DNA of 61,100 nt, filler included, from Bipalium vagum (GCA_037834085.1; 3 parts of 3 records of this genome joined end to end with filler, not necessarily neighbours in it); one strand, 5' to 3'. Shown: positions 6,554 to 33,782, numbered from the whole stretch's first letter. Program-made: numbers and translations. Notes: generated by a model from the letters alone, not told the origin.

Positions 6554-7760
6554 TTAAGGGATATATTTCCATTTGGCCAATTTAAGCAACTGAAGCCGTT
6601 TGGGTAGGCTATATGAAAGTCTCTGACAATGTTCTGTATTAATGATTTTCCATTCTTTCTCGACTGCTTTCCACAGTTGGTCAGGAGTATTGAAATTTTT
6701 CCCGGCTAGTTTTGCCTTTATGTATGCCCATAATTTCTCAATGAGATTAAGATCTGGCAATTGTCCAGGCCGAAACATAACCGGTAAACCTTTTTTCTTC
6801 AACCATGCTTTTGTTGTTTTTGCTGTGTGCGCCGTTACATTTTCCTGTTGGAAAATAACATATTGTCTTTCATTTTCCGTGCATTCTTTCTCGATGTTTG
6901 AAAGCAATTCAATATCTAATATCCTTTGGTACTCTTTGTCATTAATTGACCCAGTACATCGTATAAGCTCACCAACTCCAGATGCTGAGAATATTTCCCA
7001 AACGATAATTCCCCCAGCGCCATGGTTTTTTTGAGGTGGAAATACATTCCATTACATATTTTTCAGTTGATCTTCGAAGACAGCATTCAATGGCATCACT
7101 ATGAAGTTCAAATCGACATTCATCACTCGAGAACACAAATTGGAACCACTGAGAATCATACATACCGTAAAGATTATAAAAATTTAATCTGTCCTTAATA
7201 TTCTTTTTTGAATAAAATGGTTTCCTTATACAACGCATAGATGCAAATCCCAATTCTTTGACTCGTCTTGCAATTGTTTTTCGAGAAACTGTTTTATTAT
7301 TTCCATTTTTGAATTCCTCACCTAATTTTTTAATAGTTTTCTTACGATCTTTAATGACCTCAGATTTCAGTCTATTGTTATGTCGACTTGTAGTTTTTTT
7401 GGGTTTTCCTGAGCCTGTTTTTCTTTTTACAGAACCTGTTGTCTTGAACTGGTAGCCAATTCTTTTTATTGTGGATAATGGAATTTGAATACCACATTTC
7501 TTCAAAATATTCTGCATTTCATGATATGACAGTTTTGTGTAACAAAGGCCTCATATCCGATTTTTTATTTCGACATTTAAATGTTTCTTAGTCATTTTAT
7601 TTATTACTTGAATTATTAAAACAAACAGAACAAAATACCAAATTACATACATATTACGGGCAATAGCTTAAATATTAAAAATGTAATTAATGTTAACCAA
7701 TTTAAACATTTTTATTAAAATGTTTTATTTTGTGTAAGCCTCATTTTTTGTCCAGCTGTG
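6554..7760 (-). mobile_element. Tc1-like (DD34E) element, near full-length, inactivated
   Basis: Transposase runs from ATG 7595 to stop 6554 with a stop and frameshifts. Motifs: KTGSGKP, FSSDECRF, FQQE...34 aa...DLNLIEKLW. The 5' TIR TA-CACAGCTGGACAAAAAATGAGG ends at 7760. No 3' TIR was found. Confidence 0.92.
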
Positions 7761-10013: not shown

Positions 10014-10842
10014 ATGTCTGGTAAATATGAAGACGATGACCATCGGATGATGCTGGAGCTGTTTTATGAGATCGATGCTAATAATAACGGTAGGTTTCTC
10101 TATCAAAGTCTCTAGCAAGGTCTCACCCCGCATCGTTTCATTCGTTTCAGGAGAGATCAGCCACAAAGAGTTGAGTGATTATATGAAGAAACGTGGATAC
10201 ACCGATGCTGACGTTGAAGTAAGTTTAATGGATCCTGTATTGTTTGACGTTGACTGTTATGTTGGTCAACCCCTGTAGAAGTACATGAAGCACTTCGATG
10301 AGAATCAAGACGGCAAAATTACCATGGAAGAATTCGTCAGTAAACTTGATTTACATGACGATTTCTTGTAAGCTTTGATAGACAATGTTGTTTGGGGGTT
10401 TTAATTGTGTTTTCAACATTAAGTGAACGTCCCACGGAACACGACAAGGACATTGAGTGCATTAATGTTGCCAGCACTTCTTTCAATAGACAATACATAA
10501 TGGTCAACGCTGTTCGACGTGCTGTAGCCAAGGGTAAAGATGATAAAAAGGTTAATATTTGATAGTTACTCTTTTTCCTATCATACTCCGTTGATAACTA
10601 CTTCAATGTCTTTTATTCTGTGTCCAATAAACCCTGATGATCTTCATGATTTGTTCTTTGCCTTTACTCAGGAAGTGGCCAAACTTATTAAAAACCAACT
10701 GGACAGCCAGCTCGACAAGTTGTGGCACTGTCTTATGATCAAGGGACAGTACTGGGCGTTCTACTCCCATGAGCCTGAGAATAGCATGGTTTTCAAATTC
10801 CAAAACACCGTCTACATTCTGTTTAGAACACCCTCAATGTAA
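10014..10842 (+). CDS. TAL: tegument-allergen-like protein (2 EF-hands + dynein-light-chain-like domain), 176 aa, 5 exons
   Basis: Exons 10014-10089, 10151-10218, 10279-10367, 10424-10550, 10672-10842. All introns are GT-AG (61, 60, 56, 121 nt) and the frame is preserved. Protein: MSGKYEDDDHRMMLELFYEIDANNNGEISHKELSDYMKKRGYTDADVEKYMKHFDENQDGKITMEEFVSKL...EVAKLIKNQLDSQLDKLWHCLMIKGQYWAFYSHEPENSMVFKFQNTVYILFRTPSM. The C-terminus matches the TAL DLC-like pattern LDxxxxxxWHxxxxxGxYWxxYSHEP. Confidence 0.93.
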
Positions 10843-11736: not shown

Positions 11737-11899
11737 GAAAAAAATATATAATAAAAAAGCTTTTGCAATTTGATTATGATACTGAAATCCAATTGTTTTT
11801 TCAGCAGTCTAAGCTAATTCATAAAATTAGGTATCCATATATATAACACAAGGTATATCCCATTTGTACCCCACATTTTTTTATAAAAAAACAGGCCTA

Positions 11900-13000
11900 A
11901 AAATATATTCGACAAAATATTCATAAATAAAAAAACACTAAAAGTATAAATTTAATAAGTGTAAATACTTCTATAATTTTAAAAATTCCACTGTTTTTAC
12001 TTCTTTTTAACATTTACTTAATTATAACATTTAAAACAAATATGAAAATAAAAACCATTAAATTGGAAGTTTGATCACAATAATAACTATCGGTTTTATG
12101 TTTTATTACAGGTTCTTATAGTTTTTTCTCTTCTTTTTGCATACTGAATACGTTTTCTTATCTTTACTTAAATATTGTAGTCAATGAATACATTTATAAG
12201 AATATACATCTTCAAAATGACTCAATCTTGGAATTCCAATTTCTTGATTATTTATCATAGACAAATATTTCTGTACAATTGTCGTACATTAAAAAGGAAA
12301 CATTTTTAAAAGCCTTGTCTCACGAGAATTTCGTTCAAATTTTCTATAATGATTGTCATCATCTTCACCTTAATCTTCATCTTCAACAATTTCTGACTTG
12401 TTTACTGTTTCTGGTATGATTAAATTTTTTTAAAAAATTCTATAAATGAAGAACCTTTTACTACTATCTTAACATCTGTTAAATAATAATAAAACATTTG
12501 AATTTTTTAAAAAAATTTTTGGAAGTTTTACTTCAAAGAACATTGTTTGTATTATTTTTTATTTTCTCATCATGCCATCGTTTAAATAATTTTTTACGCT
12601 CATATAATTATAACTATAAAGTTCTAAATTTTGATACTTGTCAATATAATTTCGATTTTTATTGAAATAATATGGGAAAATATCATTTTTTACCTTTAAA
12701 AACAAATGTAATTGGAAAAGCATTTAATGGACAAAGTAAACTTTATAGAATCAACAAATCTTATATTAAAATGTTTAATTTGCAAATGTGATTTTATTTC
12801 CAGTGATTTTTTTTCAACTGACAGTTAATTTTAAATTAACCAACCAAATATTGGGTGGCTATCATATCCTGTAGCATAATGTGCTATAAAAGTATATTGT
12901 ATAAAATCTTTGAATGAAAAATTTTTTTAAAAAGTATCAGCTAAAGAAATTGAGTGAGTATGTTTAATTATTATTTCATTTATTATTTGAGTATTATTAG
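11900..13000 (-). pseudogene. Polinton/Maverick-type protein-primed DNA polymerase B remnant
   Basis: Minus-strand translation across frameshifts gives YTFIAHYATGYDSHPIFGWL (ExoII-type, about 12840-12897), GNKI, FNIRFVDSIKF, PLNAFPITF..KK*YFP-YFN, FKRWHDEK, then YSYKCIH*LQYL...IQYAK. The order fits Polinton pPolB. Polymerase catalytic motifs were not found. Confidence 0.8.
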
Positions 13001-14839
13001 ATATATTATCAATTTTTAAGTCCTCTACAGTATATTTCCAGTTTTAAGTTTAAAAACATTTTTGTATTATTTTGATTTTTATAAAATATATTCCTTTCAT
13101 TATCAATTGAAGTAATTGAATTAAAATGGTGATTTTTTTATCATAATAAATAAATTGTTTTTTGCATTATTCAATAAAGTTTTATCGTGATTGTTTTGAT
13201 TCAATTAGGGTGCGGATAAATTATTATTGTGGAAGTTTTTTTCAAATCGAGTTTAACTTTGTGCAGCGGCAATAGGAAAACGAAATTATTTCTGTAAAAA
13301 GTCCTATTTATTTATTCACACACCTAATAAATTTAAAATTATGATTATTATTTTATTTATTTTTTTAAATTTCTAAAATAATTGTACCACATTATTTTAT
13401 TATTATACCAAAAATAACAATTCCATCATTTTTATATACATGTTTATCTGCAAAAATTATTATTAAAAATTGATTTTTTTGATTAAATCTTACCAGGGTA
13501 AAAATGCAGTTGTATCTACAGTGATTTTTAAATTTTATAAAACTAATAAATTCAGTTTTATCGATTTCCAAGTTGTTTCCCAATCAAATGGTTTTATTTT
13601 TCATAATTTCTTTTATAATCATTATTATTATTATTTATATATTTCTGAAATTTTTTCTTTGTTATTTTTATAAAAGAAATATGTAAAATTTTGTAAATAT
13701 TTTCAATTGTTTTAAAATTTTTTGAATTTGTATTTTTAAATTCAATTTGCCAAATTTTGAGAGACTCAAGAAATGATAAGAATCAATTATGAAATTTATA
13801 ATATTTTAGTACTATATTTTTTTCAATTTATCTTTTTTTGGACTTTCTTTAAGTTTATTTTATAAAATTTCTTTTTCAATTATTTTTAGATTAGTTAATG
13901 TTTTCTTTATTACTTTTTATATACTTTTAGTTGTTTTTGAATGATAAATAAAAGAGAATTTTTCCAGTTTACCATTCTATTTACATTAACTTCGTTTAAT
14001 AAATATAGTTTTTAAACATTGCTTAATATATTTTAAATTTATAACATCATTACCATTTCTCGTTTATATTTTATTTTATTACTATTCATGTTTATGATTC
14101 CATCCGTTTTATCACCTGTATCTTTTAAGATGATTGCTTAATTTATTTTCAGATTCACGTGATAAAGTTTCAAACTGTAAAGTTAAAAATTTTAATTAAA
14201 ATAATTTCTACTTTTACTTTATTTTCTTCATCATTATCTTGTTAAAGAGATGGATCATAAACAGTTTCAATTTCCATTTTTATTTAACTATCCACCATAA
14301 GATAAATTAGTTTCAGACTGAAAATCTATTTAATAATATTCTTTTAAATCAGGTTCCAATTTATCTAATATGCTAAACCATAAGAATCAAAATAAATATT
14401 TTTAAAATATCCAAATTCCTTTTGCATTTAAATTTTGATAATTGCTTGATAATTATATTTCTGTTTTTATTTCTTTCTGTTTGTTTCTCTGTAACTTCAT
14501 CACGAATTAAAAATTTTTCCATTTCTAAATCTTCAGTAATATTTATTTATTCAAAATTTGATGTTGTACTAATTTAATATGTATATAATAAGATACAGAC
14601 CTAACATGTTCTCGATAAGTATGAAAGAAAAATTCAGAAAAAGTTAACGAGTTTGAAAATATAAAGATATAAAGACTTTCTATAATATTGTATTTGTATG
14701 TGTTTCTAATTTAATTCTATGATATATAAAAATGATAAAAAAAAACTATTTAATTATTTTTTTATGTTTAATGTATAATAAATCTTTATTGATTAATTAT
14801 TATTATTTTATTTATTATTTTATTGTAATATTTGAAAAT

Positions 14840-15557
14840 GTTCCGCGGGACTGAATTTTTCTATTTTTAAATTTAATATTTATAAAATAAATTTTCAACA
14901 AAATATTATTTGCATCATAATGGAAATAAAAATTATAAAAATCTAAAATAGAATTTTATCCAACACCGTTACTTTTTTGTAAATATAAGAAAGAAATAAT
15001 AAAAGAATTGTAATTAAGGTTCTTTAATGAGTTTGAAATATTTACAATAAAATTTAACCTTACAGAAGATAAAAGAGTGAGATGTGATATAATTAAAATT
15101 TTAATCATAAAATTTTCAAATCAAAGATATATATCGTTTTGAATAATTATTCCCCTTCTTTTGATTAAATTGGGAAGAGCCAAAACTTTTAAAACTTTGA
15201 AAATATGTAAAAAAATATAATAAAAAAATTTTTTTAAAAAATATTATTATTAAAAAATTATAATTTCATTTTACATTTCAGATCATAATTGCAATTCAAA
15301 ACTTACATTTAATTCATTACTTTTAATTATCAAATAAGTATTTGTTTAAATAACCTATTTATGTATAAATTTCAAAATCACACTTTCATTGAAAGTTTAA
15401 CCAAAATTTCCAATAAAGTTCTACGTCAGTTAATTTTCCCAAAGATGTTCTTTATAATCCAGTATAGGAAATCGATCAAAATTTAACCATTTCATTTTTC
15501 AATCTATTTGATATCTACTGTAAAGGAGACAAACTGAAAATTATTTTAAATTTCTAG
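14840..15557 (+). pseudogene. possible Polinton minor capsid (penton) remnant
   Basis: The 3' part reads PKDVLYNPV*EIDQNLTISFFNLFDIYCKGDKLKIILNF*, resembling the penton C-terminal pattern PxxxxYxPV...IxIxxxxxxxIxxxGxxxxIxLxF. It sits between the pPolB and MCP remnants and is heavily decayed. Confidence 0.4.
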
Positions 15558-15870
15558 CAAAAATCAGCATTTTATATCTATTTAAATTTTAAAACATCCT
15601 ACAAAAATTACTTTTGAAGGACCTTGAAATTTTTTCAGGCTTCAGTTTGTCAAAGAAACTGACATAAATCCTCGATGACAACATCGCTACGATGGCGACA
15701 AAAATTCATTAAAGAAGTTAGCATCATCAACTTCGTTGACTTGTGCGAATCGAAATTTAATTATAATGGGTAACATTTAATTAATTATTGTTTTTATGAA
15801 TAAAAATTGTGTAATTATGGGTTAACATGAGTAGGTCATGATATTGTGATTTTAACTGAATTTTGTTTTA

Positions 15871-16350
15871 TTAAGTGTGTAAAATAATTCGGTCTGTTTT
15901 TAAAAGATAGCTTCGGCTATAATAAATCTAATAATTATAGCTTAGTTCAGTTGATTCAAAGAGATTAAAAAACTGAATAATTTTCAATTGAATTAAGATT
16001 TTCTAACAAAACGACATTGTCTTACAGGCAAGAAAGGTTTATAAGCATTAGTTGATGAAGATTCCAATCAATAAAAGAGCTCGTCGAATCTATAGGAGTT
16101 AAAAAAGGAGTAGTTTCCATAAGATTGAAATCGATGGCTGTTATACACAAGCAAGGAAACTAGGTGCCTCATAAACTAAAACCGATATTTCTCTTGAGAC
16201 CTGTTGCTTAAAAGGCAACAAAGAAAGGGTTTCTTAAATTTACTCAGGGTTTAAAAAATGAATATCTTTTTCCAACACCTGAAATGGAAAAAAATCTACT
16301 GTAGTCTCGGAAAGTCAACATCAACAACCAAATATTACACAGTAAAAACT
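15871..16350 (+). mobile_element. mariner 5' remnant
   Basis: TIR-like TTAAGTGTGTAAAATAATTC, then ALVDEDS..., SIRLKSMAVIHKQGN*VPHKLK (WVPHEL motif). Confidence 0.8.
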
Positions 16351-16689
16351 TCGCCTAACGAATATTTACTTTTGTATTTATTTTAACATTAAATATTTAT
16401 TTTATGTGGTTTATTTCTGTTTTATGATACTGATTTGTTATCGGTATTTGATTATTTTCGTTATCCATTCCTTCCGACCCATCAAATACAAAACTAAATG
16501 CAGTTAATATTGATTGCATTAAAATAATTGAACCAGAAAAATAATTACGCTACACAATTGACAAAATAATAATTTTTTAGTTTACGTAGACAGGTAATCT
16601 AAAATATGATCTGGCCTGAAATTTTCTGTAACTGAAATTAACTTTTATACTATGATAAAGTTCTAATTTCAAATAACCAAATTGTATTT

Positions 16690-17660
16690 ATTCAAATTTC
16701 TATGTCATGTTTTGAGATTTGGCGGGAAATGTTTGCAGTATGCCTCATAAGTATGCCCTAATCTTCGTCAACTTCACTGGCAATTTTTTCCATACTCTCT
16801 TCAATGCGGTGAGTCCTTTCGGAAAATATTTTCTCTCTGAATATCTGATTTTTACAGATGACCAAAAATTGACCCAATTGGACGTGTTGGAGGCTAATTC
16901 GGCGGGTTTTTGGGTACAGATGTGATGTTTTGGTTCTTCAGATACTCGGTGATCAACGCTCATATTGCGCAGGCATCAGGCTTTATATTTGTTGATAAAT
17001 CGTATCAACCTTTCTTAATTCATTCATTTAAGTTGATTTCCTGACGTATACCTCATTCTGAAATATAGGCCTCAGAAACATTTCCATATTGATCCATTGC
17101 TTTCCAAACTAAATATTTCTTGAAAGATTTAGTTTTTTAAAATTTTTTGCAATAATTCACATCTGCAGGATCGGAGTAATGAAAAAATGTACTTCTCGGC
17201 ACATCATTTGGTTTTACTAGTATATAAGTTTCGTTGTCTATAATTAGACAATGTTGTTTCATTTTTCGTAGAACATAATACGCTCCAGATTTTGCATGAG
17301 TCCTCTGATTCTTAACAAATCTTGGAACCACTTTTTGTTCTAGCTTATTTGACTTTTATGTCTGACAAAGTAGACCGGGCTACTTTGAATTTCTTACTCA
17401 ACTTTCGTACTGAAGGAGAAGTATCATTTTTGCAAGAATTTCAGCATTGGCTGTGTAGCTAACTTTACGACCGGATATATGTTGATATTCCGCAGATCAT
17501 GTTGCCTCATATGACCGAATTGCATTATAAATTGTTGATATGGGAATACCTTCCTTAGAAAAATGATTAACGGTTGAATTTCAGTTGAAATTTATTTGCT
17601 CACAATAAAATTTAATAATCATCTTTGCACGCATTTCACTTTCTCTTCTTTTCATTTTAA
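16690..17660 (-). mobile_element. DD37E-like Tc1/mariner remnant
   Basis: CLIIDNETY, KKYLVWKAMDQYGNVSE, FVPKNPPN*PPTRPI. This is the same motif set as the element at 24814-26086. Confidence 0.75.
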
Positions 17661-17699
17661 ATATTATCTAAAATTAAAAGGGTAGAATTAATGTATTAA

Positions 17700-18260
17700 T
17701 ACGACGGTCAGTCAAAAGTAAACTTAACAAATTTATTTATTTAAACATTAATTCACATTTGAGCGTTAATGTCACTTTTCAATATAGTCTCCTACATGTT
17801 CAATACACATACTACACTGCTTAATTAGATTCCGAATCCATGGGAGAAGAAATCTTTTGTCTGACTACGAATCCACTGATGCACTGATTTTTTGAGCTCT
17901 ATATCTTGAGTGGTCAAGAAAATCATCACCATCTGTTTAATAACGATAAAAGAGCATTTGACAGATGTCCATCCGGTGGACATTCATCTCGTGAGTAAGC
18001 TGAGTTGGAACACACCTGGCAGACATTTTAACACATTGTGAATGATGTAATGGACTGAACCGTGACATCACTTTATGGGCTACTTCATCATTGTTATCCG
18101 CCTGTTTTCACATAAGATATGATCAATTTTGGAAATGCTCTTTGGTATTTCAGTTGAATTGAGTCTCCTAGATCAGGTGCATCGCTCAGATTTGTTAATC
18201 CGCTTTGGAAATTATTATGCCATTCATATACCTGTTGAAGTGATAAACAGGCATTCCCAT
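17700..18260 (-). mobile_element. internally deleted mariner remnant
   Basis: TIR TACGACGGTCAGTCAAAAGT at 17700. The minus strand gives RCVPTQLTHEM (WVPxxL) and a C-terminal CIEHVGDYIEK*. Confidence 0.75.
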
Positions 18261-18264
18261 ACCT

Positions 18265-19725
18265 TGATTATGAGAATGCTAATCAGACCTGAGGAATTTT
18301 TAATTATTTATTTTAAAATATTTAAAAAGTATGAATGAAATTTTAAAAATAAAATTATTTTTTAAATGTAATAAAAAAGAAGAAACTTTCAGGTCTGAGA
18401 AAATTTGTTTAAATATTATTTGTTATATCACTGAATAAAATATATTCAAAAAATGTCTTCTTATTCTGACTACAAACCAATTGATATTAACATGACATCC
18501 ATCACCGACTCGGATCCGATCACTGAACGTTTCCAACCAAAAACGTTCTGTAAGGGTGACGATCAAGAAGGGAAACCTTGATCTATTGCCTATTAGACTT
18601 AGATTTAGTGGAGAAGTATGAAAGCACGGCCGGAAAAGTTAGTGGATTCGAAGAAAGATTACGATTGGCCTTTTTCAAACCAAAAGATATGATAAATGAT
18701 TTGGAAAAGTTAATTAACTATCGAAAGCCTCTTGAAAAGCACTAATGAGATGTATAAACGATCCAGAAATTGAGACGGAGATCGAACTGAGAAAGTTAGG
18801 AAGTATTGAAGAAATGGAAGATCGAATTAAATTAATGGATGGAATTCTACAGAAACAATCTGATCATGTCAATACCATCAGGACCTACAGAGACGTAATG
18901 AGGAACGGTAGATATCAAAACGTACGGAGATATGAAGCAGGATATAAGAATAGACTTGTTGTAGAACAAGTCAGACCAGAATCACGTGTTTCTAGACCGT
19001 TTACAAGAATGGCAAACGATGGCCAACAAGAAGACAAATAGAATGTTGGACGTGTAAAAAAGTTGGACATATAAGCCAAGACTGTCCCGAGAAGAGAATT
19101 CCTACATACGTTGGAATTATACAGTTTACAAATGTCAAAGGTGTGGAAAAAATGGACACCAAGCCTCGGATTGCTACTCAAATTTAAATAGAGGTCAGAG
19201 AAGAAACGGGAATTTTTAAAAAGGTTATCAGGAATGAATAGAAGTAAGAGAATTAATGTGATTAGTGAAAATATTGATGTGATATGGGAAGGAGATTGCG
19301 TGAGAAAAGAATATGAGAATGCATCCTTGACCACAAAAGATGAGGCACCACTAGTAGGGGACCTAGTGGGAGCCATATAATAGAAATCAAAAATGATTAT
19401 TCCCAAAGGATTGAGACTGAGGAAGGAGTGACACGACCAGCAGAGAAAGTGTACAGATTTTTAAAGAAGCAGTTTGAGTTTGAAGATTGTAAGCTAGTTA
19501 ATGCATTTGCAGAAAGTGAAGAGACAGTTATCTCGTATGACAGAATTCATGGACGTCCAAGTGTAAGAATGAAAGTGCAGGTTTTGGAATTGGATATTCT
19601 TTTGGATACAGGAGCAGGAGTCAATGTAATGAGTACGAAGATAGCTCAAAGACTGACAGATGTTATGGTGAAAAACCTAGATGTGCAAACGATAGTTTTG
19701 AAGCAACAATATGAAAGTAAAACCA
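18265..19725 (+). mobile_element. Ty3/gypsy-like LTR retrotransposon 5' fragment (LTR, gag, protease)
   Basis: LTR-like segment 18265-18492 (TG...AACA, contains AATAAA) has a second copy at 26393-26619. Two CCHC knuckles (CWTCKKVGHISQDC, CQRCGKNGHQASDC) and the aspartic protease motif LLDTGAGVNVMS are present. Truncated before RT. Confidence 0.88.
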
Positions 19726-19726
19726 A

Positions 19727-19985
19727 GATAAAATAAAATCTTTAAGAATACAAGTAAATAATTTTTACTATCCTTTAAACCCTTTTCAATTTGAGAAAGG
19801 AAAAAATAATAGAACTTATTAGAATTATAAAAAAGCTTGCAAATATTTTTCAAATTTATTCAAAAATGTTAGCTAATTTCAAGAGAAAGATGATTTTGAT
19901 TATTTGTATGATTTTCATATGAAAGAAAAATATAATCATATTTTTATAAATTTACAAAATGAAAAAATATTACCTTCAATTTTTA
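19727..19985 (+). pseudogene. Polinton capsid C-terminal fragment, possibly joined to a packaging-ATPase tail
   Basis: IKSLRIQVNNFYYPLNPFQFEKGKNNRTY*NYKKACKYF resembles the MCP xxYP...YxxY segment. The following FDYLYDFHMKEKYNHIFINLQ resembles packaging ATPase C-termini. Confidence 0.45.
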
Positions 19986-20039
19986 TATCAACTTGTACAA
20001 ATTTTTAAAAAAAAATTTAAAAATCAATTTTTTCAAAAA

Positions 20040-20795
20040 ATGAGTATCAATTTTAACTTAGATAAAAATACATATCATCAAGATTTAACAGTAAAAATGT
20101 GATTATTTATAAATTTGTTTATATCCTACATTAGCAACAAATTTAAATAAAAATGGAAATTTAACTTTAGTTTATTACAAACAGTAAATGCTTTGAATTT
20201 ATCAGAAGCAATTTTAGTTTTTGAAATTGAAATAACAAATATAAAAGCACATGAAAACACCAAATTACAGAATAACTTTTTTCCTTATGTTTTTCTAAAG
20301 CAATTTTAAAATTAGGATCAACAGAAGTAGAAACAATTGAATATTTAGGAACTTCAAAATCTCTAACAAATTTTGTATTAATTGATAAAAATTATGATGG
20401 AGAAATTTTTGGATGGATTCCTGATAAAAGTAAAGAAGATCCAAATAAAGATAATAAATAATTTAAAACAAAAAAAATTATATTCAAATAAAAAAATTAA
20501 TGGTGAATTTCCTTTAAAATCAAACGCTAGCGAAGCTCTAGGAAACTATTCTTCCAATCCTCAATTATCTTTATTAGAATTCCAAAATTTATATTCTATA
20601 TTTTGTTTTAATTTGAAAGATCAACCAGAAAATTTATGTTTAAATGGAACAGTTATAACTTTACATATTTTAAAAGATAAAGATTTTAGAGGAAAAATAA
20701 ACGTTGTTTTATTGCAAGAGCAATTTATGGAAATAAAGTTAAAAGAACGAAAATTATTTAATACTGAAACAAAAGTAAAAAGTAATTTGAAATAG
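20040..20795 (+). pseudogene. Polinton/Maverick major capsid protein (double jelly-roll) with large internal deletion
   Basis: From ATG 20040 across frameshifts: YPTLATNLNKNGN..LNLSEAILVFEIEI..LQNNFFPYVFSKAILKLGSTEVETIEYLG..GW, then directly the C-terminal SSNPQLSLLEFQNLYSIFCFNLKDQPENL..*. Both blocks match Polinton MCP patterns. Confidence 0.75.
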
Positions 20796-21223
20796 ATTTT
20801 TTGAAATCTTTTTCAATTTTATATTTAAAAAATTGGTTAAAATTATTAAATCATATAGTAATTATTCAATTTTTATAACATTTTTTATTGCCCCTTTTAC
20901 GATATATTTTTAATAATCTTTATAAAGTTTATATTTTCTTAATTTTATAAATTTTATCTTTTTTTATTTTTTAATTTTAGTATAGGTATACTAAGAAATA
21001 TTTTTTAAATTCTCAAGTTGTTAGGTTGGGGATTAATTTTTTTTAATATTTTTTATAATTTTCATTCATTTTTTGTTACCAAAAATTCAGAAATTTTAGA
21101 AAAAAAAGTTTTTTCATTTATTACAGTATCTGGCCATTGAAATAGGCTCAAACAAAAAGTTTCGTGTTTTAGTCGTAAATTCAATTTCTAAAATATTTTT
21201 TTTACGTAATTCATTATTAAATG

Positions 21224-21323
21224 NNNNNNNNNNNNNNNNNNNNNNNNNNNNNNNNNNNNNNNNNNNNTTAATTAATTAANNNNNNNNNNNNNNNNNNNNN
21301 NNNNNNNNNNNNNNNNNNNNNNN
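21224..21323. other. assembly gap with artificial linker
   Basis: 44 N + TTAATTAATTAA + 44 N = 100 nt. Confidence 0.97.
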
Positions 21324-22092: not shown

Positions 22093-23160
22093 TTAGGGTG
22101 GTCTGGAAGTCTTTAGACTATTTATTGGTAACTTTGTTTTGCTACTTTTTATTGATGCATTAACAAATTATAAGTATTATATCAAATTAAAGGAATATTT
22201 ACGGAATATTGATTCTAAGATTTTATTTAAATCCTTTGTATTTTTCATAGAGGAAATGAAAACTAACAATTAACTTTTAACTATCGTTAACATTTACTGT
22301 ACGAGTTCCAGTTAGGCCATAATATCACAGTTGCGATCCAAAATATCCGTAAAGCAAAAAGCGATGGCGCTGTTAAGCGTGCAACAGTTTTTAACCGGTA
22401 TAAAAAATTTTAAAATGTTCGATTTTATCTCGATTACCAACCATGTACCGGACGTTCGTTATCAATTGCTTGCGAGTTCATACGTTAACCTGTAAAAAAA
22501 ACCATTACAAGTAAACGAAAGACTTTCAGGAAAACTAAAGTTGGCCAAATCAACAGTCCATGATCATTTGCATATGCTGAAAAAAGATATCAAAGGGTGT
22601 AGGGAAATTCCTCATGAATTAACCTATAAGCAATAAAAAGGAAGGATCGAAAATTGTCAAAAATTGTTATGTAATCCATGTCATGAACCGTTTTTTAAAA
22701 TTAAACTTCACTTCTGACGAAAAACAGATTTATTTTACCATCTATAACAGGCAAATTCAGTGGCTCGACTCAAATCAACAAGCTCTTGTAGTACCAAAAA
22801 GAGAACGCTTTGCAAAAAAGGTTCATTTCTGCGTTTGGTGGAATTACGAGAAAATAGTGCAGTTTGATCTTCTCCCTTATCCAGCCTACACTCTAGACCT
22901 ATCGCCTTCTGATTACCACCTATTCAGGTCAATGGGACATTTCCTACCGGGACCTTTCTTTTCTTTGGTTGACGAGGTCAAAAATGCCTGCCGAGAATCT
23001 TTCGCTTCCAAAGATAGTGCATGATATGCCAGAGGAATCAATCAGCTTGTGGGAATATGGCTGAAGACTATTGAGCACAATGGACTATATTTAAATATAT
23101 ATATTTTATGAATTTTTTGGATTTACCTTAAATTAGTCTAGAGAATTTTCAACCAATATA
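22093..23160 (+). mobile_element. mariner element with internal deletion
   Basis: TIR-like start TTAGGGTGGTCTGGAAG. Motifs EIPHEL, TSDEK and CVWWN are joined directly to YTLDLSPSDYHLFRSM, so the second catalytic D region is missing. Confidence 0.88.
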
Positions 23161-23667: not shown

Positions 23668-26600
23668 ACTCCTTTTGTAGCGGCTTTTGCTCAAGCAAAT
23701 CTCGGCGATGTTTCCCCTAATACTGCTGGTCCGAGATGTATTGATTCTGGGAAACCATGTGAAATATACACCAGTACATGCAATGGCCGAGTAAGTTTTA
23801 ATTTTTATTTATTTTCATAATTATAAGTTTTTAAAGTAAATGTATATCGACTTGAATTTAGTCAAAATTAGATAAAACTGTTTTTTCATTTATTGGCTTT
23901 TTTGATTGATTTACTGCATCTTGCATGTTTCCCTTTTATCATGTCACATAAAAAGTTTGTTTTTTCAATTGTTATTGTATAAGGACATCGACTAATATTT
24001 GAATTTACTCTTCGGTTTAAATTTTGATAAGGATGAGGATGAATATTTATATTGGGTTGGCAAGAAAGTTATTGCGACTGTTTTGAAGAAACAAAATATT
24101 TTTACTAAATTATGGATTTTCGTTATTGTTAAGGAGCTGTTGCCATCTCCATGAAGAATAAACATATTTCCTTCATATAACCTTGGGTTTATCTGTAAAA
24201 TACTTTAACAAAGTATGTTTAACGTCATTATCATTGTAAAAGTTTTACCATTCAAAAAGTTTCATTCATAGAGTGAATCAAATGGTAATCGGTAAGAGTT
24301 ATATTATGGATGTGGTAATATGTTTCAACCAAGGTTCAATCTTTTTTACAGGGTGACCAAAGAAATGTGTGGTTTTGCATTGTCATGGTGAGAAACATAG
24401 ATTTTACGGTTTATCAATTTTTTGTTTTTTACTTGGATTTCCGTGGAAAAAATTGCCAACTGATCAATATCAATATTAGAATCAATCCTTTTTCTGCATA
24501 AGAGGTTTTCGAAGAATATCATTCCTTGATAAAATTCAAAATAGAAAAGATATTAAAGTGGAAGTTAGTAAGTTTTTCGCCTCAAAAGGGTCTAAATTTA
24601 ATAAAGAGGATATTTATAAACTTGTTTCTCGTTGGAAAGGTGTGTTTGATTGTGATGGTGATTATCTTAATGAATAACATTTAATTTATATCCTTTTATT
24701 AATCTTATTTGATTTTTTAATATAGTCATACAAAAACCAGTACGAACTTTCTTGGTTACCTGATATATTCGTTAAGTAAAATACCAGATGTACTTAAACA
24801 TTTTGTCAATATAAGGAGTGGTCCATATATAGATGCTGCCACTTCTAACAATTAGTATGAAAGATTATGGTACATAGTAACTAAAAACAAAGACATTTTT
24901 GAAAATGTATTATATTGATCTTTTTATTGAATAATTTATTTAGTGATAATCCCGTAGATGAAGAGACAGCAACACGAATTTAACGCCAAGGCAATTATTG
25001 CTTTTTTTCACGAAAATTCAGAAAATAAACTGGCTACGGTTAATCACTTTCGGCAGCAAAATATTAAAGAAAGAACAATTCGGAATGTGATATCACGCTT
25101 TCTGAGGATTGGAGTAACAGATTAAAAGTCAATACCAGGTCGTAAACCAGTTGTAAACACTCCCAGAACCCAAAGAAAAGTGTTGAAGCACGCGAAAATC
25201 AACAGATCACTGTCAGAGCGCGTGTATCAAAGCGGTTGCATCTGAGTCGTAGTACCTATCAGAGAGTGAAAGAAGCAGAGGAAGCCTAAGTATAATAAAG
25301 GTCAAATACAGCGTTCAATTAATTGGTCAGCTAAGCTTTACAAGGATAGTCTTCCAAGTGGCAAGAATTACTTCTTTGTTTTTGGATGACGAAACATATA
25401 TGCCACTAGATCAGACTCAAGTGACTGGTAACCAATATTATTTGTCGGATGATGAAGAGGAGACACCAGTTGAAGAGCATGTAGTTCAAACCGGTAAATT
25501 TGAAAAACGGTTTATGATCTGTCAAGCGTTGGCAGAAGATGGATCTGTTTCAGAGCGGTTGTGACTAATGGTACTGTTAATGGTGAAATTTATCTAAAAA
25601 GAATGTATTGAAAAGCGTCTTTTGCCGTTTTTACAAAAGTTGAATGTCCAAAGGCCAAGTTTATTTTGGCCTGATCTGGTAACTTCGCATTATTTTAATA
25701 TTGTGACGGCCAAACTCAAAGAAGAGGGCGTCAACTTTGTTTCTAAAAAACAGAACTCACCGAATTTGCCATAGTTACGCCCAATTGAAAAAATTTGGGC
25801 ACTTTGTAAGCACAGATATTACATACTGAATAAACCAGTTGACAGTATACCAAAATGAAAAGAATCTGGACACGCATCTCTAAAATAATTGCAGCTGAGT
25901 CTGGAAAAACCTTTCGACAAAAATTACTCACTTGTTCCGAAAAAGGACTACTTTCTATTTAAATTTTGTATAAAAATGTTCTTGAATATAAATGTTATTC
26001 GTTCTAAAAGTTTACTTATGTTTATGTTTGCTCGTTTACCAAATGTAAAGGTTTGATTGCTCGGTATCTGTATATGGGCCACTCTATATTTTTATATATG
26101 ATTCTTACTTTAAATATTTATTTTTATTTTTTTATAAAGATAAGCATTTTTTCATTTTATATAAGCATATTACAAATAAATATTTTTTTATAATATGGAG
26201 AATATTTTCGTTTGATATATTTTATCCTGTTATTCAACCATGAATCGAGGGTTCATTTTTTTCATTTATTATATAATTATTAAAATTTTGTATATTTTTA
26301 ATTTTAAAATAAAATAACGAATTCGAAATAATTGAAAAATTTACACTTAATAAAAAGAAATTTTTATTTATTGTTTAAAATTAAATTTTAGTCGTTAATA
26401 TCAATCGGTTTGTAATCAGAATTAGAAAACTTTTTTAATAGATTTTATTAAGTGATAAAACAAATAATATTTAAACAAATTTTCTCAGACCTGGTAATTC
26501 CTGTTTTTATTAAATTTTTAAAATAAGTTAATTTATAAATAGTTTACTTTTAAAATAATTAAAATATTTAAAATAAATAATTAAAAAATTCCCTAGGTCT

Positions 26601-29600
26601 GATTAGCCTCCTGATAATATTATTTATTATGATTATACAATATATAAATTTATTTAAGTTGAAATTATAATTTACGAAAATATATAAATGGATTATAAAA
26701 GAACTAATGGGAATATGTAAGTATTTTCTCAAAAATCCATAACCAAGAAACTTTTTAAAACATTTGAGTTAATATAAAATACTTAGTCTTTAATTTAAAA
26801 GAAATTTTATATAAAAATAAATTTTTATAAGTAAAAAATATTAATTTTTTATGTTTGAATTAATAAATAATTTAAATATTATAAACAAAGTGAATTTAAT
26901 ATTTAAATAATTTCAATTTTTCATAAAATATTATTATCTATGATAATTTTCATGTTTCTGAAAACTTGTTTTGTTTTTGGAAATATTAATTTAATTAAAT
27001 AAAATAATAATAATGCATTAAAATTATTTTAATTAAAGATACATTTCATTATGTACGTGTTGTAATTTTTTTCTAAGTGCAATAATGAAATTTTTTTAAG
27101 AAATCCATTTTGTAAAATAAATATATATTAAATATAAATAATTCAAATAATGCAAAGATTTATTTCTAAATTTTTATAAAATAAACCATAAATAATTTTA
27201 ATTATTAAAATATTTACTTTTATATATAATATTATTGAAGTCAATTTTTTTTAAAATTATAACATGATATTTTATTTGATAATGTTACTTCCTAAACCAT
27301 CTTTAAAACTGAATTAAAACTTTTATATCTATTTATCTTGAAATTGTTATTTCTTAAAATTTACAATTATTTTTTTATGTATTTTCTTTGTCAGATATCA
27401 CACCAAAATTAATTAATTTATAATATATTTTTATCTATTATAGATTTTTATTTATTATTTTAATTTCTTTTCCTTAAGTTTTCTCAAAATTACATGACAT
27501 TAACTTATTTAATTCTGATTAATTAACATTTTTCTTTAAAATAGTAATCATTATTATATTGATTTTATTATTTATAAATTTGATAATATTAATAATTAAA
27601 ATATTATACGATGAAAAATTTGTTTCGAAAAATATCAATTCAACCATATAAATGAAATTAAAATTATTAGATAAAAGTTATTAATTAATTAATTTTTTTG
27701 CCTAAATTAATAGGTTATTCAATGAACCAAAAAGAATTAGCTAATACGATTATCATTTTATAAAAAAGTCTAATTATTTTTATTAGTCAAGAATTGTTCC
27801 AAAATGTTTTTGAATAGGAATAATTTCCTAATTTTATCAATAAAACAAATTCAAAATAATTATATTTTTTAATTTAAAATATAATTTAGTTCATTTGATA
27901 AATAAATTATTTAGGAAAAAATTAAATCAAATTTAGATTCATCATTTTGAATTGATGTTTTTATTTATTAAAATAAAATACTTACTCCATTCCATAAAAC
28001 CCAATTTTTTATTTCATAAAATAGGTAATCATTGTTATTTGTTTATCTGTATTAAATTGATTTTAGAATTGATGTTTTTATTTTATTTTTTGAAATAAAA
28101 TATATAATTATTATATTTTTTAGTAAACATAACTGAACTAAAAATATCCGCTGTTGGATTACCTTTCCTCATCTTTCTGGTAACTGCAAAATTCTTTTTG
28201 ATTACATAACCTTGTAACTTTGTAAAGTTTTCAAATGAGTTTTTAATATTTAAGCTGTTCAAAGGTGGTTAGTGCAAGATGTCTGAGAACAAATATCAGC
28301 TAAGCTGTAGAATAATTTAACATACAAAGAAATTGCACCAATTCTTTTAGTTTTACTTATAATAAAATTTTCTTTTCTAATATCAAATACAATGTATTAC
28401 TTGCTTAAGAATTAAAGTGGCTTTTAACGGTACTTAAAGTAAGTACTTATAATTTAAGCCATGGTTCACCTTATTTAAAATGTTCATACACAAACCATTT
28501 TTAATCATACCTAAGCCTCCGATCTCTTTAGTTGCTTTAACTTATCTTATTCAATTAAGTGGAACATGATTTTTTTCGCTATAAATCAATTTGAATTTCG
28601 GAACTTGTTATGAAAGCGTTATTTTATCATTACTTAGAATGAAAAATGCATTGCATTTGGACCGGGCAGAGATATGTTCGAAAGTACAAAAATCATAGGA
28701 GAACGTCAGTTACAAAAGGCTTTACAATTATATGGGAATGCAACAACAGAAATCAACGGTCCTCTTCAATATAAGCATCAGTTTAAACAAATGACAAATG
28801 TAACTGTTTTGACCACGGATGGCAACTGGAAAACAACTTGTTTGCCGGCAATGGGGTACAGTTTTGCAGCTGGAACCACTGATGGACCGGGAGCCTTTGA
28901 CTTTTCTCAAGGTATTTTCTTTAATGTCCGATGTCATTTCACACATTAAAATATTTTAAATCCTTATTTCTTAAAACAATTAAATACTTATTTATTATTT
29001 CAGTTTTCCCTCTTTCTAGATGACTTGTTATTTTCTTTGAAAAGACTGATATCTTCAAATTATTCCATTGTACTTTAAAAGTGAAATCAAAATAATAAAA
29101 TTTCAAAGTGTGTTTTAAAAATGATGTCAAGCAACTAAGTATCTCTAGGAAAACTTAATATTTTTCTATATTAAATGAATAAGTTATACTTGAAGGAACT
29201 TGAAGAAACTAAGTTTTGAGATCCCCTTTTCTATCCTCTATCACTGTAATGCCAATGACTAAATTAGAAAAAAATCCAGAACTAGGTGCAGTTTGATAAA
29301 CGATGCATTAATCAAAAGAAGAAAAGCGGATTGAGGTGATATTTTTACTAAAAAATATTTTAATCTGAATTCTACATTCTAAAGAACAACTGAAATGAGT
29401 CACATAGAATTGACATTTTGTAGAAAAAATTATAGGAATAAACTTTATCAGACAGTCCAGAACAGAACTTAGTGAAGGAGAAAGAACACAATACGATAAA
29501 GATGAGTACAGAATAGGGCAAAAAGTTCTAGTAAAAATGTAAAACGTTTGACAAAAAAGAGACTTTATGATGAACCCTGTGAAATCATTTAGGTAATTTA

Positions 29601-32600
29601 TGGCCTGAACAACAAGTTTTTATTCTCAAAAATATTTACATTAAAAGTAGATTAAATATTTCCTTTTATTTAACCTAATATCTAATTAAACATCAATTTA
29701 TTATTTTTGTTATGTATTTTTGAAATTTATTATCACACTACTTACAGAGTTTACAGTGTACATTAACGATTGTTTTAAGTTTTTTTAAAAACGAACGAAG
29801 GTTTTACAAATAAAAATAAAAATAAGAAAAGATATGAGCCCACTACTCGTCAAACAATAATAAGAAAAATTCAAAATGTAAAGGAGGAACCGCGAATAAT
29901 TAGCCCTGAACTGGAAATAAATGAAAGTCCGGTAGCTTCAGTTAAAATCGTTAATTTAAGTTTAAAATCATGTTTAATGAGTAAATTTAATATTTCTGCA
30001 GACTTTTTTATGTAAAATTTTTGAGTAGATGTTTATATAATAGGTACACGTTATTTTTCAATTTCGTATCTTCAACAAGTAAACTTAATATTCCATTTGT
30101 CTATCATAGGTACTAATACTTCAAACCCATTTTGGAATTTTATTCGGGATTTCATTAAAACTCCGAGCGAAGAACTCGTTGAATGCCAAGCTCCTAAGCC
30201 TATCTTATTAGCAACTGGAGAGGTGAGATAATCTAAAAAATATTTATATAAGGTTTCACTTCATTAAAACAAGATCAATTTTCCACATTTGTGGCAACCA
30301 CAAATTGTTGAGACTCAAGTTCTTCGAATCGGTAGTTTAGTAATTGCAGCAATACCCGGAGAGTTCACCACAATGTCTGGTAGAAGAATGCGAGATGCAA
30401 TTGGAAAAGTAGATATATATTCGTTTATATTTTGAAATTTAAGATGTCAAGGTTATGAAAAAAGAGAGTCAAAATTCAAATGTTACCGTAGTTATTGCTG
30501 GGTTGTCGAATACTTATTCTGATTACATTACAACATTTGAAGAATATCAGGTTTTAGTTTTATGAAAAATGGATATGAATACTGTTTTTAACAGAGACAG
30601 CGATATGAAGCTGCATCAACTATATATGGTCCCCACACATTGGAGGCCTATATTTCTCAATACTCAAACCTCACCAGAAGCATGATAAATGTATGAATAC
30701 ATTATTCTTTATATTTATCTTGTCAAATTTGTATTGTATAATATTTAAGCGGTTTTTTATTAAAATAATATATCGAAAACTTCTACTAAAAATATATTAC
30801 GTTGTAAAAATATAAATGATTGTTTTTAACATTAAACTTCAGATGAACAAATCACAGCTTAATCAAAATAGAAACCATTATACTGTACAAATTTCTCCCA
30901 ACGAGTCACACACTTATTTTCCCGATTCGATAAAAATCTGGAGTTCTGGATGTTACAAAATTTTCACAGCATCATCATTGGGAAAGGTTCTTTTGCTGAA
31001 GAGCTTGTCCAAATGTTTGAATAAATAATAATAGCTAGGCGAGAGGTCTGGTGAGTAGGCCAATTGAGACAAAATTTCAATATCAAGCTGGTTCAATTTT
31101 TGTACGGTAGATTATGCGACGTGTGGTCTGGTGTTATCATGGAGAAACAATGGGCCTTTTCTTAAGACCAAGGCTGGGTAGATGCCTTTACAGTTTTTCA
31201 TAGATTTCTTCGATTTCCACACAAAACTTTTTAGCGGCAGTTCTTTGATCACATTTCAAGAATTTATAATGGGTCGTCAAAACAATAACCAAAATTCTCC
31301 GTCGGTGCAACTTAGGTTTAAGAAAAGGTTTAGGAGGTTCATGTTGATATAACCACTGCTGAGAGCATCGGTGGTTGTCATACAGGATCCATTTCTCATC
31401 AAATGTCACAATGCAATCGAAGAAAGGCTCCTTTTTGTTGCGCAAAAGAAGTGCTGACCACACCTCAAAACGACATAATTTTTACTTTTCTGCCAAAGAT
31501 GTTTTACCTAATCTGCCTTATTCACCAGATATTGGTCCGAGTGACTATCATATGTTTCGATTGATGACACACGTACTTTTGAAGCATAAATTCAATGATT
31601 ACGAAGAAATAGAAAATTGGTTCAATTTAAGGATCACTTTGAAAGACGAGTCTTTTTTCGGTCAAAAATTACAAAAACTGTTTTTAAAACTTATATTGTA
31701 ATCAGTGTGAGAAAAATAATATCAAACGATGGAAAATCTCTCAATTAGTGTATAATACTTGTTTTTTTTTAATAGCTTTCTTGTATTAAAAAAAACTTAC
31801 CGAATTAATTCATATACTTAATATTTTTACAGTAAAAATTTTAAAGACAAGTATAATTTTTTAGGTAGCATGCCATAAAGTGGGGTCCCATTTGTTTTAA
31901 AGCATCAATAAATTTTTTGAAGGTCACAAATTCATTCATAATGTTAATCAAATTTTTTTCTATAATTCAATAACTTTTTTATAATTTAATAATGAAAAAG
32001 CGATAGAATTTATACGACAAAGTCAATTGGTATATTTCTCTCCAAAATGTCCTTCATGCTCTAGTGACATAATTTTGGCATTAAAAATGCAACCGATAAA
32101 TGTAATGTTTTATTAACTATTAATAAAATTTGTTGACTTTCTATACCGATTTTGTCTGCTAAAATAACCTAAATAAAAATAATTTTAAAAATTACTATGT
32201 TACAAAAATACAAAACAATGAAGACCCCACTTTATGGCATACTACCAATTTTTATAATAAATTAAATCTTATACAATACTGAATTAATCTTTTGTTTGAA
32301 AGTTAAAAGTCACTTAGTAAAATGATCTTAAATATATCAAAAAATGAAATAACATAAATAATAATGATAATAATATAACGAATAATCATATTTAATTATA
32401 ATTATTAAAAATAGAAAAATCGAAAAACTTCAAATGTACTTGCTAAATATTTTTAAGGAGACGATTTACGCTGGTAATAGCGGTGTGCTTGAATTAGTAT
32501 GAATTTAAATAATGATCCCGAATAATTAAAATTCATTTCTTTTTGTTTTACATTTGGTAAATAATTTAATTACAAATATATTGATTTCGTCTCAGCAAAA

Positions 32601-33448
32601 AAAATTTGACATCTTCAGATCCACTTTTAAAATGAAACCGAAATGGAAATTGATACTTTATATTTTCTTTAATCAATGTTTTTAGAATCTATTTTCATAT
32701 TTTAAATTAATTTCTTTCCACTTGGTAATTTCCTTATATAGAGAATATTATAAAATTAATAAAATTAATTCAATAATCAAATAAATTCAAAATATTGGTT
32801 TTAACCAATTGAAATTTATATTTAAATTTAATTTTGTAATTAAGAAATTCTTGAAATGATAAATATGTTTTTGACAGTTAATAAAATAAATTCAGTTCTA
32901 ATTAAAAAAAAATTTCTTTGTTTACGAAATTTTAAAGATTTTAATGTTTTAAAAAATGTGTAATATTACATTATAGTATTATTACATTTTCAAAATTACC
33001 ATGGATATTAAATTAAGAATCAAAACTCAGTAGTTATGTATTTTATTTATATTTCAAAAAAAATAAAAATGTAAAATTATTTCTAAATAAATAAAAATTA
33101 ATTTTATATTTATTTTATCTTCGATTTAATATATTAAATTATACAATTCAAACAATTTTTAAAATAAAAAAATGTATAAGAAATAGTTAATAAAAAATCG
33201 GCAATTTCATATGTGACAACCAATTAATATAACTTTTTCAAAATAATCACAGCTTATCATATTTTTTTAAATAAATATGTAAATAATTTAAAAAAATACT
33301 TTTTTAGAATGAAACTATTCCAAGAGGACCTTTCCCACCGTTTCAAGAAGATACAGTGTCATTTGTAATTCCTGTAATTTTTGACAATCCTGGCATTAAT
33401 CAAAGGTTTGGACAAGTCCTTCAAAATTCTCCTCCTTCTGTGTCGAGG

Positions 33449-33485
<37 letters not shown>

Positions 33486-33734: not shown

Positions 33735-33782
<48 letters not shown>

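What the first reader, a model, noticed from the sequence alone, without database searches (positions are those of the whole stretch)
11900..20795. Fragmented Polinton/Maverick-like endogenous virus
The ORF track shows almost none of this. Manual translation gives a protein-primed PolB remnant on the minus strand (11.9-13.0 kb), a possible penton (14.8-15.6 kb) and double-jelly-roll capsid remnants on the plus strand (19.7-20.8 kb). Replication and morphogenesis genes diverge, a layout compatible with one element. Capsid plus pPolB implies a once virion-forming DNA element in this lineage. Unassigned decayed coding-like DNA at 13.3-14.6 kb may hold lineage-specific viral genes. No integrase or TIRs were found.
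Basis: partly seen in the sequence, partly recalled or inferred. Interest (0 to 1): 0.7.

Follow-up and report, generated by a model that had tools for sequence, protein, structure and literature searches.

The report
Decayed Polinton relic with scrambled capsid
Broken pieces of capsid, protease and DNA-polymerase genes of a Polinton-like (virus-like) DNA element lie here, likely from one old insertion in what is likely a flatworm genome; such relics are ordinary, and Polintons are already reported from flatworms.

Summary
The core observation holds. Double-jelly-roll capsid (MCP) pieces at 19721-20795 (+) and a protein-primed PolB remnant at 11859-13034 (-) are real. New here: a Polinton-type maturation protease at 14224-14614 (-) and a probable ATPase C-terminal scrap at 19836-19988 (+). 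The polymerase remnant holds only the exonuclease and a VSR-like insert; no catalytic core was found. The capsid pieces are out of order (residues 291-335, then about 1-158, then 325-412 of its closest relative), and about 130 residues are missing. The penton call is not supported, and no integrase or terminal repeat was found. About 4 kb of transposon DNA splits the relic. Over 2,000 contig records of one public run lie on the capsid stretch, so it belongs to a many-copy family. The polymerase is of a different class from those beside the capsid's relatives, so either a module-swapped element (a described pattern) or two elements left these pieces. A neighbouring gene points to a flatworm host, where 748 Polinton polymerases are already tabulated. 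Verdict: real, dead, ordinary; interest 0.22.

The parts
11859..12285 (-). VSR-like endonuclease insert of a protein-primed PolB (decayed); the polymerase palm that should follow was not found
   Evidence: End-to-end frameshift-aware profile score 23.9, z=7.4, 0 of 150 shuffles and 0 of 100 AT-matched controls reach it; the local version was not significant (22 bits, 21 of 246 controls as high)
12438..13034 (-). 3'-5' exonuclease domain (Exo I-III) of a PF03175-type (Alpha / group-2) protein-primed PolB, with stops and frame changes
   Evidence: 83 of 120 pPolBs hit by tblastn; local profile 72 bits against a control maximum of 43 (22 blocks), with 5 frame changes and 2 stops in the alignment; z=17.8 with the PF03175-type profile against z=4.1 (score -23) with the divergent-type profile
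13050..14220 (.). Unassigned AT-rich DNA; by position and length likely the decayed N-terminal (terminal protein, vOTU) part of the same pPolB (inferred)
   Evidence: AT skew -0.18 on +, beyond the range -0.11 to +0.14 of 11 AT-matched windows and like a minus-strand Polinton gene; vOTU profiles not significant (z 1.3 and 0.9); none of 91 ORFs of related loci matched convincingly
14224..14614 (-). Polinton-type (adenain-like) maturation cysteine protease, decayed, near full length
   Evidence: hmmsearch iE 1.3e-4, reversed-window control best 0.0098; end-to-end z=9.9 and 10.2, 0 of 100 and 0 of 150 shuffles, 0 of 120 and 0 of 100 genomic controls; opposite strand z=-1.6. Profile of 3 ORFs from L003, L013, L016; the name 'protease' rests on recalled motifs and synteny, Pfam gave no family for these three
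14620..15650 (.).
   Evidence: No penton signal; no strand skew (+0.02); no convincing match among 91 ORFs
15650..18266 (.). Inserted DNA of higher GC: a Tc1/mariner-like transposase remnant at about 16780-17661 (-) and two stretches with mariner-like motifs seen by eye only
   Evidence: GC rises to 25-39%; 17655-17509 matches a second remnant at 24958-25122 (43%, E 2e-6); Pfam named none of these pieces, so the family label is recalled from motifs
18267..18491 (.). Short dispersed repeat; second, inverted copy at 26394-26618 (82% identical); not a terminal repeat of the relic
   Evidence: Self-BLAST E 6e-54; the two copies flank an N gap and host ceramidase exons
18492..19715 (+). LTR-retrotransposon gag-protease remnant abutting the capsid pieces
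   Evidence: zf-CCHC E 1.9e-4, above Pfam cut-off; aspartic protease E 0.0024, below cut-off; GC 34-39%
19721..19855 (+). Capsid piece A: residues 291-335 of P0001, lying upstream of the gene's own start
   Evidence: tblastn 67% over 45 aa, E 9e-13; one stop
19836..19988 (+). Probable C-terminal scrap of an A32-type packaging ATPase
   Evidence: Best ATPase hit in the window but weak (iE 0.07); end-to-end z=5.3-5.6, 0 of 100 and 0 of 150 shuffles, 0 of 100 AT-matched controls, but 27 of 120 unmatched genomic controls score as high
20040..20514 (+). Capsid piece B: N-terminal part, about residues 1-158 of P0001
   Evidence: tblastn residues 6-134, E 3e-12; profile positions 13-183 of 430; 104 bits with 2 frame changes and 1 stop against a control maximum of 36; the last 25 residues are read by eye
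20523..20795 (+). Capsid piece C: C-terminal part, residues 325-412 of P0001, stop-free to the stop codon
   Evidence: tblastn 49% over 88 aa, E 1e-21; sister to P0001 in a tree of 24 rows, support 97/94

Best explanation
The stretch holds decayed capsid, protease and polymerase gene pieces of a Polinton-like DNA element, likely left by one old insertion into a likely flatworm genome, and it can no longer encode an intact capsid or polymerase. How it arose (inferred): an element of the usual Polinton plan (protein-primed PolB copying a linear genome, retroviral-type integrase, ATPase, protease, double-jelly-roll capsid) integrated next to a host calcium-binding/dynein-light-chain gene. It would have joined a PF03175-type, VSR-bearing polymerase to a capsid-protease module whose relatives mostly sit beside the divergent polymerase class. 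It then decayed neutrally: stops and frame changes (shown), loss of the polymerase core, integrase and ends (shown as absence from the window), about 4 kb of transposon insertions (shown), and a local rearrangement that put a 0.7-kb block (ATPase end plus capsid start) between two capsid pieces that follow each other in other copies (order shown; a copy-specific DNA repair or recombination event is inferred). Today it most likely does nothing; it is one of many diverged copies in the host genome.
For: Capsid identity. pPolB exonuclease and VSR. Protease and ATPase scrap match ORFs from loci fetched by the capsid, so three genes point to one family. Same gene order and strands as L003: pPolB(-), protease(-), capsid(+). 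Uniform 18-22% GC of the pieces against 25-39% for the inserts. 2146 contig records of run X1 lie on 19560-20800 (118 at 99%+, 379 at 95-99, 740 at 90-95, 909 under 90), and 6 of the 15 joint rows shown (8 contigs; 65 rows not shown) go from piece A straight to piece C. Alpha PolB with Beta virion modules is described (PMC8502044). Host: neighbouring DLC domain is closest to fluke calcium-binding proteins (E 1.5e-9 against 4e-4 for ordinary light chains).
Against: The polymerase class differs from that in 2 of 2 capsid-relative loci that hold a pPolB (L003 41 bits, L016 no hit on PF03175, against 151-173 bits for the window's relatives). No locus with this polymerase class and this capsid family together was found. 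2.2 kb inside the relic stay unassigned, the penton and vOTU tests failed, and 4 kb of foreign DNA separate the protease from the capsid. No integrase, terminal repeat or target duplication marks the ends. No listed record spans the rearranged capsid stretch, so an assembly join of two copies is not excluded. Regions for the end-to-end tests were chosen after seeing first hits, and the protease, ATPase and divergent-PolB profiles rest on only 3, 5 and 2 sequences.
Confidence: 0.6

Rival explanations
1. Two different Polinton-like elements left the pieces: a PF03175-type polymerase fragment from one, and protease, ATPase and capsid from another that inserted next to or into it in a repeat-rich graveyard.
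For: Polymerase class mismatch with 2 of 2 capsid-relative loci; 1.2 kb of unassigned DNA between exonuclease and protease; the region collects insertions.
Against: Order and strands equal L003; the 1.2-kb gap has the size expected for the pPolB N-terminus (exonuclease starts at residue about 440-490 in L023 and L021) and minus-strand skew; polymerase-capsid swaps are common in this group.
Confidence: 0.27
2. An integrase-less Polinton-like (MELD) virus was captured passively by host DNA repair, so there never were an integrase or target duplication.
For: No integrase, terminal repeat or duplication found; L021, the first pPolB that matched, shows no integrase-like ORF among those printed (read by eye).
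Against: Capsid relative L001 and locus L002 carry rve integrase; the best pPolB matches lie on contigs of 0.35-1 Mb; the many diverged copies fit repeated integration; the relic is truncated, so absence says little.
Confidence: 0.08
3. The scrambled capsid order is an assembly artefact that joined two diverged copies of a high-copy repeat; the genes are real but this arrangement is not.
For: High-copy family; N gap 0.4 kb downstream; no listed record spans the stretch, and contigs show the normal order.
Against: All 30 bins are covered in X1 and 118 records are 99%+ alike; the listing shows only 16 of 2325 pieces, so missing bridges prove nothing. This rival concerns only the order, not the origin.
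Confidence: 0.04
4. Chance resemblance in AT-rich host DNA.
For: Pfam and PDB sequence searches on the window's own frames found nothing; two word-based searches found no relatives.
Against: E 4e-19 against 1.84 billion proteins; 83 of 120 against 0 of 120; z of 7 to 18 for three segments.
Confidence: 0.01

Closest known systems
Polintons/Mavericks (Polintoviricetes), as described in PMC4028283 (passages) and PMC6431247 (passages)
   Same: Double-jelly-roll capsid, protein-primed PolB, adenovirus-like protease and probably the packaging ATPase, embedded in an animal genome.
   Different: All genes broken; no integrase, terminal repeats, penton signal or polymerase core in the window; capsid pieces out of order.
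Adintoviruses with Alpha (pfam03175-type) PolB and a virion module of the other class; and the degraded adintovirus relic on human chromosome 7 (PMC8502044, Results parts 1-2 of 3)
   Same: Strong-PF03175 polymerase beside a capsid family whose fetched relatives have the divergent polymerase; pseudogenes recognised only by alignment to intact relatives.
   Different: No named Mayetiola or Terrapene reference was on hand, so the class of the virion module is inferred from neighbouring polymerases only; L001/L002 also carry a PLA2 domain, which that paper ties to Alpha modules.
Flatworm Polintons tabulated by Jeong et al. (PMC10748475, supplement rows): 748 integrase-linked pPolB1 in 8 of 73 platyhelminth genomes; VSR-bearing pPolB2 of molluscs and a marine nematode (bioRxiv 10.1101/2023.08.22.554363, passages)
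   Same: Group-2 type pPolB in a likely flatworm; a VSR-like insert.
   Different: Whether this remnant is pPolB1 or pPolB2 was not tested; all tabulated flatworm copies are pPolB1, while the passages read describe VSR for pPolB2.
Unnamed metagenomic relatives P0001 and loci L001, L003, L004
   Same: Capsid 49-67% identical to P0001 over two pieces and sister to it; L003 has the same gene order.
   Different: They are intact; L003 has the divergent polymerase class and a clear penton on the minus strand.

Membership tests
Polinton/Maverick | Double-jelly-roll major capsid protein | tested here: met
   As three fragments; fold of closest relative
Polinton/Maverick | [quoted passage not shown] | tested here: met
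   Exonuclease and VSR-like parts only; no palm-region match above controls
Polinton/Maverick | Adenovirus-like cysteine protease | tested here: met
   14224-14614 (-); small profile, name from recalled motifs and synteny
Polinton/Maverick | A32/FtsK-type packaging ATPase | tested here: inconclusive
   Only about 50 C-terminal codons; z 5.3-5.6 but 27 of 120 unmatched controls as high
Polinton/Maverick | Penton (single jelly-roll minor capsid protein) | tested here: inconclusive
   No signal with a 6-sequence profile from capsid-relative loci; other penton classes were not on hand
Polinton/Maverick | Retroviral-like (rve) integrase | tested here: not met
   No match above controls. The relic is therefore filed as Polinton-derived, not as a complete member
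Polinton/Maverick | Terminal inverted repeats | tested here: not met
   Only low-complexity AT pairs; the 225-bp inverted pair spans host exons
   Ends are lost; no whole genome held
Alpha adintovirus PolB (pfam03175 type, PMC8502044) | PolB of the archetypal pfam03175 class | tested here: met
   Relatives score 151-173 bits on PF03175; window fits that profile, z 17.8 against 4.1
Alpha adintovirus PolB (pfam03175 type, PMC8502044) | N-terminal OTU (vOTU) domain | tested here: inconclusive
   z 1.3, 16 of 150 shuffles as high
Beta (Terrapene-class) virion module | Hexon and penton cluster with Terrapene cognates; GasderminX or cupiennin genes | not testable with these tools
   No named reference sequences could be fetched; the pX-like profile gave no match in the window

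The most novel reading that the evidence does not exclude
A flatworm-resident Polinton family that swapped modules, joining a VSR-bearing PF03175-type polymerase to a capsid-protease-ATPase module otherwise seen with the divergent polymerase class, spread to hundreds of copies, is shared with a second organism, and still has intact, virion-competent members; the unassigned 14.6-15.6 kb would be a penton too divergent for present profiles.
Probability: 0.2. Interest if true: 0.4.

Novelty: new member of a known kind. Interest (0 to 1): 0.22.

Why it matters
Little by itself: it is one dead copy of a widespread kind of endogenous virus-like element. It is useful as bait. Its capsid belongs to a family whose fetched relatives are all unnamed, so tying that family to an animal host, and checking whether it really travels with a PF03175-type polymerase, would add a host record and one more case of polymerase-capsid swapping. 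It also shows that Pfam alone misses such relics.

Tried and rejected
No whole genome is held, so copies, ends and intact members could not be searched. Pfam on six frames of 11.4-21.2 kb: no PolB or capsid. Word-based homologue searches with the capsid frame and the exonuclease frame: none of 498 and none of 522 candidates passed. PDB by sequence: nothing useful. The ESM Atlas gave no answer. Scans for loci: capsid alignment in viral contigs 0 of 43 stretches and in prokaryote genomes 0 of 223; penton 0 of 18; pPolB scans gave only L021/L022 and L023. Penton at 14.8-15.6 kb: rejected for now; only the penton run was complete (120 target and 162 control frames), the ATPase and protease runs were cut by time and are not used. 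vOTU at 13.05-13.7 kb: motif-like by eye, not significant. 91 ORFs of related loci against the two unassigned regions: best 22 bits, at shared compositional hot spots; 120 of 364 tests exceeded a weak 8-shuffle maximum, none convincingly. Integrase, pX-like, PW-like and divergent-PolB profiles: no match above controls. The 18267-18491 / 26394-26618 pair as terminal repeats: rejected, it encloses a gap and host exons. Mariner-like motifs at about 15.9-16.4 and 17.8-18.3 kb: not confirmed by Pfam or in-window tblastn. A target-site duplication around the 0.7-kb capsid block: only short AT-rich likeness, not called. Reads were laid only on 19560-20800, so copy spread and linkage of the polymerase-protease part remain open. 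No RNA holder listed. Summed depth is not used as a copy number; X1 may be the window's own source and is not independent. Ceramidase profile positions 1-240 were not found among 89 stop-free pieces tested, and no ceramidase exon lies in the relic. Earlier findings: three look-ups returned nothing. Literature searches gave no paper on flatworm Polintons in their listings, but the supplement tabulates them; supplements of bioRxiv preprints could not be seen. My note 2 had the Alpha/Beta labels reversed; note 3 corrects it.
Full report
Setting. The window is AT-rich eukaryotic DNA with four N gaps; no whole genome is held. Host genes flank the finding: a dynein-light-chain-domain exon ending at 10842 (PF01221, E 1.6e-10), neutral ceramidase exons from 23668 on, beyond the gap at 21224-21323 (closest solved structure 4wgk), and a kinesin ORF at 38668-41961. 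The light-chain domain is closest to calcium-binding proteins 5fwz, 5fx0 and 9voa (E 1.5e-9 to 7e-8) and far less to ordinary light chains (E 4e-4 or worse). EF-hand/light-chain proteins are described as confined to parasitic flatworms (PMC4300400, PMC12347358; search listing with start of abstract); that the three PDB entries are fluke proteins is partly recalled. A flatworm host is therefore likely, not proven.

Capsid. Pfam on all six frames of 11.4-21.2 kb saw no capsid or polymerase. The stop-free frame 20382-20792 found 19 relatives among 1.84 billion representatives, best P0001 at E 4e-19. All 9 tested carry PF21738; none has an informative name. An AlphaFold model of P0001 (pLDDT 78, pTM 0.83) matches the capsids of Singapore grouper iridovirus, PBCV-1, mavirus, Sputnik and PRD1 (E 7e-15 to 4e-11). 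Mapped back, P0001 residues 291-335 lie at 19721-19855, 6-134 at 20055-20428 and 325-412 at 20523-20786; an 8-sequence profile gives 104, 74 and 46 bits against a control maximum of 36 (20 blocks). So the pieces are out of order, and about residues 159-290 are absent; in the model these hold five strands and three helices, so no intact double jelly roll can be made (inference). The C-terminal piece is sister to P0001 (97/94) in a 24-row tree whose bootstrap had not fully settled.

Copies and the scrambled order. One search listed two runs for 11800-15700: X1 with 0.88 of the words and X2 with 0.06. Laid on 19560-20800 at 80% likeness, X1 gave 2146 contig records (118 at 99%+, 379, 740, 909 in the lower bands) and X2, another organism, 80 (5, 12, 19, 44), covering 30 and 29 of 30 bins. 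This shows many diverged copies, not a number, and X1 may be the window's own source. Six of 15 joint rows shown (8 contigs, best side 42 letters; 65 rows not shown) go from the end of piece A to the start of piece C, so other copies have the normal order. In the window a 0.7-kb block sits between them; it holds the capsid start and, upstream of it, a stretch that fits the end of an A32-type ATPase (z 5.3-5.6; 0 of 100 AT-matched but 27 of 120 unmatched controls as high). No listed record spans the stretch, so an assembly join is not excluded.

The capsid's family. A metagenome scan gave 20 loci from 171 pattern matches. They carry ATPase (PF04665), rve integrase, PLA2, pX-like proteins, and penton-like and protease-like ORFs named from recalled motifs. 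The penton profile found nothing at 14.8-15.6 kb by four methods, and the integrase profile nothing above controls.

Polymerase. None of the ORFs of those 20 loci, two pPolBs included, hit 11.9-13.0 kb. A motif scan fetched L021, whose pPolB hit three colinear frames (E 3e-5). Of 120 listed relatives of it (239 found), 83 hit 11-21.5 kb and none hit elsewhere. End-to-end, the exonuclease (13034-12438) scores z 17.8 and a VSR-like segment (12285-11859) z 7.4, both above 150 shuffles and 100 AT-matched controls; locally the VSR piece was not significant (21 of 246 controls as high), and its label comes from motif likeness to P0154-type proteins and recall. No palm match rose above controls; microsatellite and host-like DNA follow. 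The vOTU test failed, although 13050-14220 has the length and the minus-strand skew expected of the pPolB N-terminus (TP-vOTU-EXO-PALM order from PMC11161782, passages).

Class mismatch. The window's pPolB relatives score 151-173 bits on PF03175; L003 scores 41 and L016 nothing. By the definitions in PMC8502044 (passages and Results parts 1-2 of 3) the first are Alpha and the second, by inference, Beta. That paper reports Alpha PolB with Beta virion modules; polymerase swaps are also shown for nematode Polintons (bioRxiv 10.1101/2023.08.22.554363: abstract, Results part 2 of 3, passages) and called frequent in 10.64898/2026.10.13.758929 (abstract and one section). The mismatch thus fits either one swapped element or two elements. 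Gene order and strands equal to L003 and uniform 18-22% GC favour one (0.60 against 0.27).

Insertions and ends. GC rises at about 15.6 kb and falls at 19.7 kb. Inside lie a transposase-like remnant matching a second one at 24958, a 225-bp repeat with an inverted copy at 26394-26618, and a gag-protease remnant with zinc knuckle and aspartic protease that abuts capsid piece A. Without these 4 kb the relic is about 5 kb. No terminal repeats were found.

How it works. Shown: four gene remnants, their breaks, order and absences, the insertions, and many copies. Inferred: integration by an rve integrase, protein-primed replication and virion formation by the ancestor (from gene content; PMC4028283 and PMC6431247, passages), a module swap, and neutral decay with a local rearrangement. 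Nothing suggests present function: the longest stop-free capsid frame is 137 codons and is a mosaic.

Novelty. Integrase and terminal repeats were tested and not met, so this is filed as a Polinton-derived relic, not a complete member. Such relics are described, even in human. Polintons are tabulated for flatworms: 748 integrase-linked pPolB1 in 8 of 73 genomes (PMC10748475, two supplement rows seen). Listings of searches showed no paper devoted to them, and the supplement of PMC8502044 had no flatworm terms; preprint supplements were not seen. Earlier scan notes held nothing. Verdict: observation partly confirmed, interpretation partly supported, new member of a known kind, interest 0.22.

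Noticed in passing
window 10051-10842 (+): Dynein-light-chain-domain exon closest to fluke calcium-binding proteins, with an EF-hand-like stretch near 10.2 kb seen by eye (Pfam did not name it): likely a TAL-family gene.
   Followed up: partly
window 23668-34355 (+): Six neutral-ceramidase exons (PF04734 positions 241-455, PF17048); positions 1-240 not found among 89 pieces tested, perhaps lost in the gap at 21224-21323.
   Followed up: partly
window 38668-41961 (+): Uninterrupted 1097-codon ORF with a C-terminal kinesin motor (E 2e-79) and a long low-complexity N-terminus, in a genome whose other genes have introns.
   Followed up: no
window 6557-7550 (-), 22291-23021 (+), 48471-48827 (+): Tc1-like (DDE_3, HTH_Tnp_Tc3_2), Mos1-like (HTH_48, Transposase_1) and DUF4817 transposase remnants.
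   Followed up: no
window 12310-12420: Short acidic low-complexity stretch between the exonuclease and VSR-like segments of the pPolB remnant; it draws spurious profile hits.
   Followed up: no
window 21224-21323 and 44710-44809: Two gaps written as 44 N, a 12-base palindromic spacer, 44 N: an assembly convention, not biology.
   Followed up: no
L001:5191-6606: PLA2-like domain fused in one ORF to an rve integrase in a capsid relative.
   Followed up: no
L018:7718-10825: Two double-jelly-roll genes in tandem in one element.
   Followed up: no
L023:1443-10368: PF03175-type pPolB with a VSR-like segment, integrase-like ORFs, ATPase and a 560-aa capsid-like ORF without a Pfam match.
   Followed up: partly
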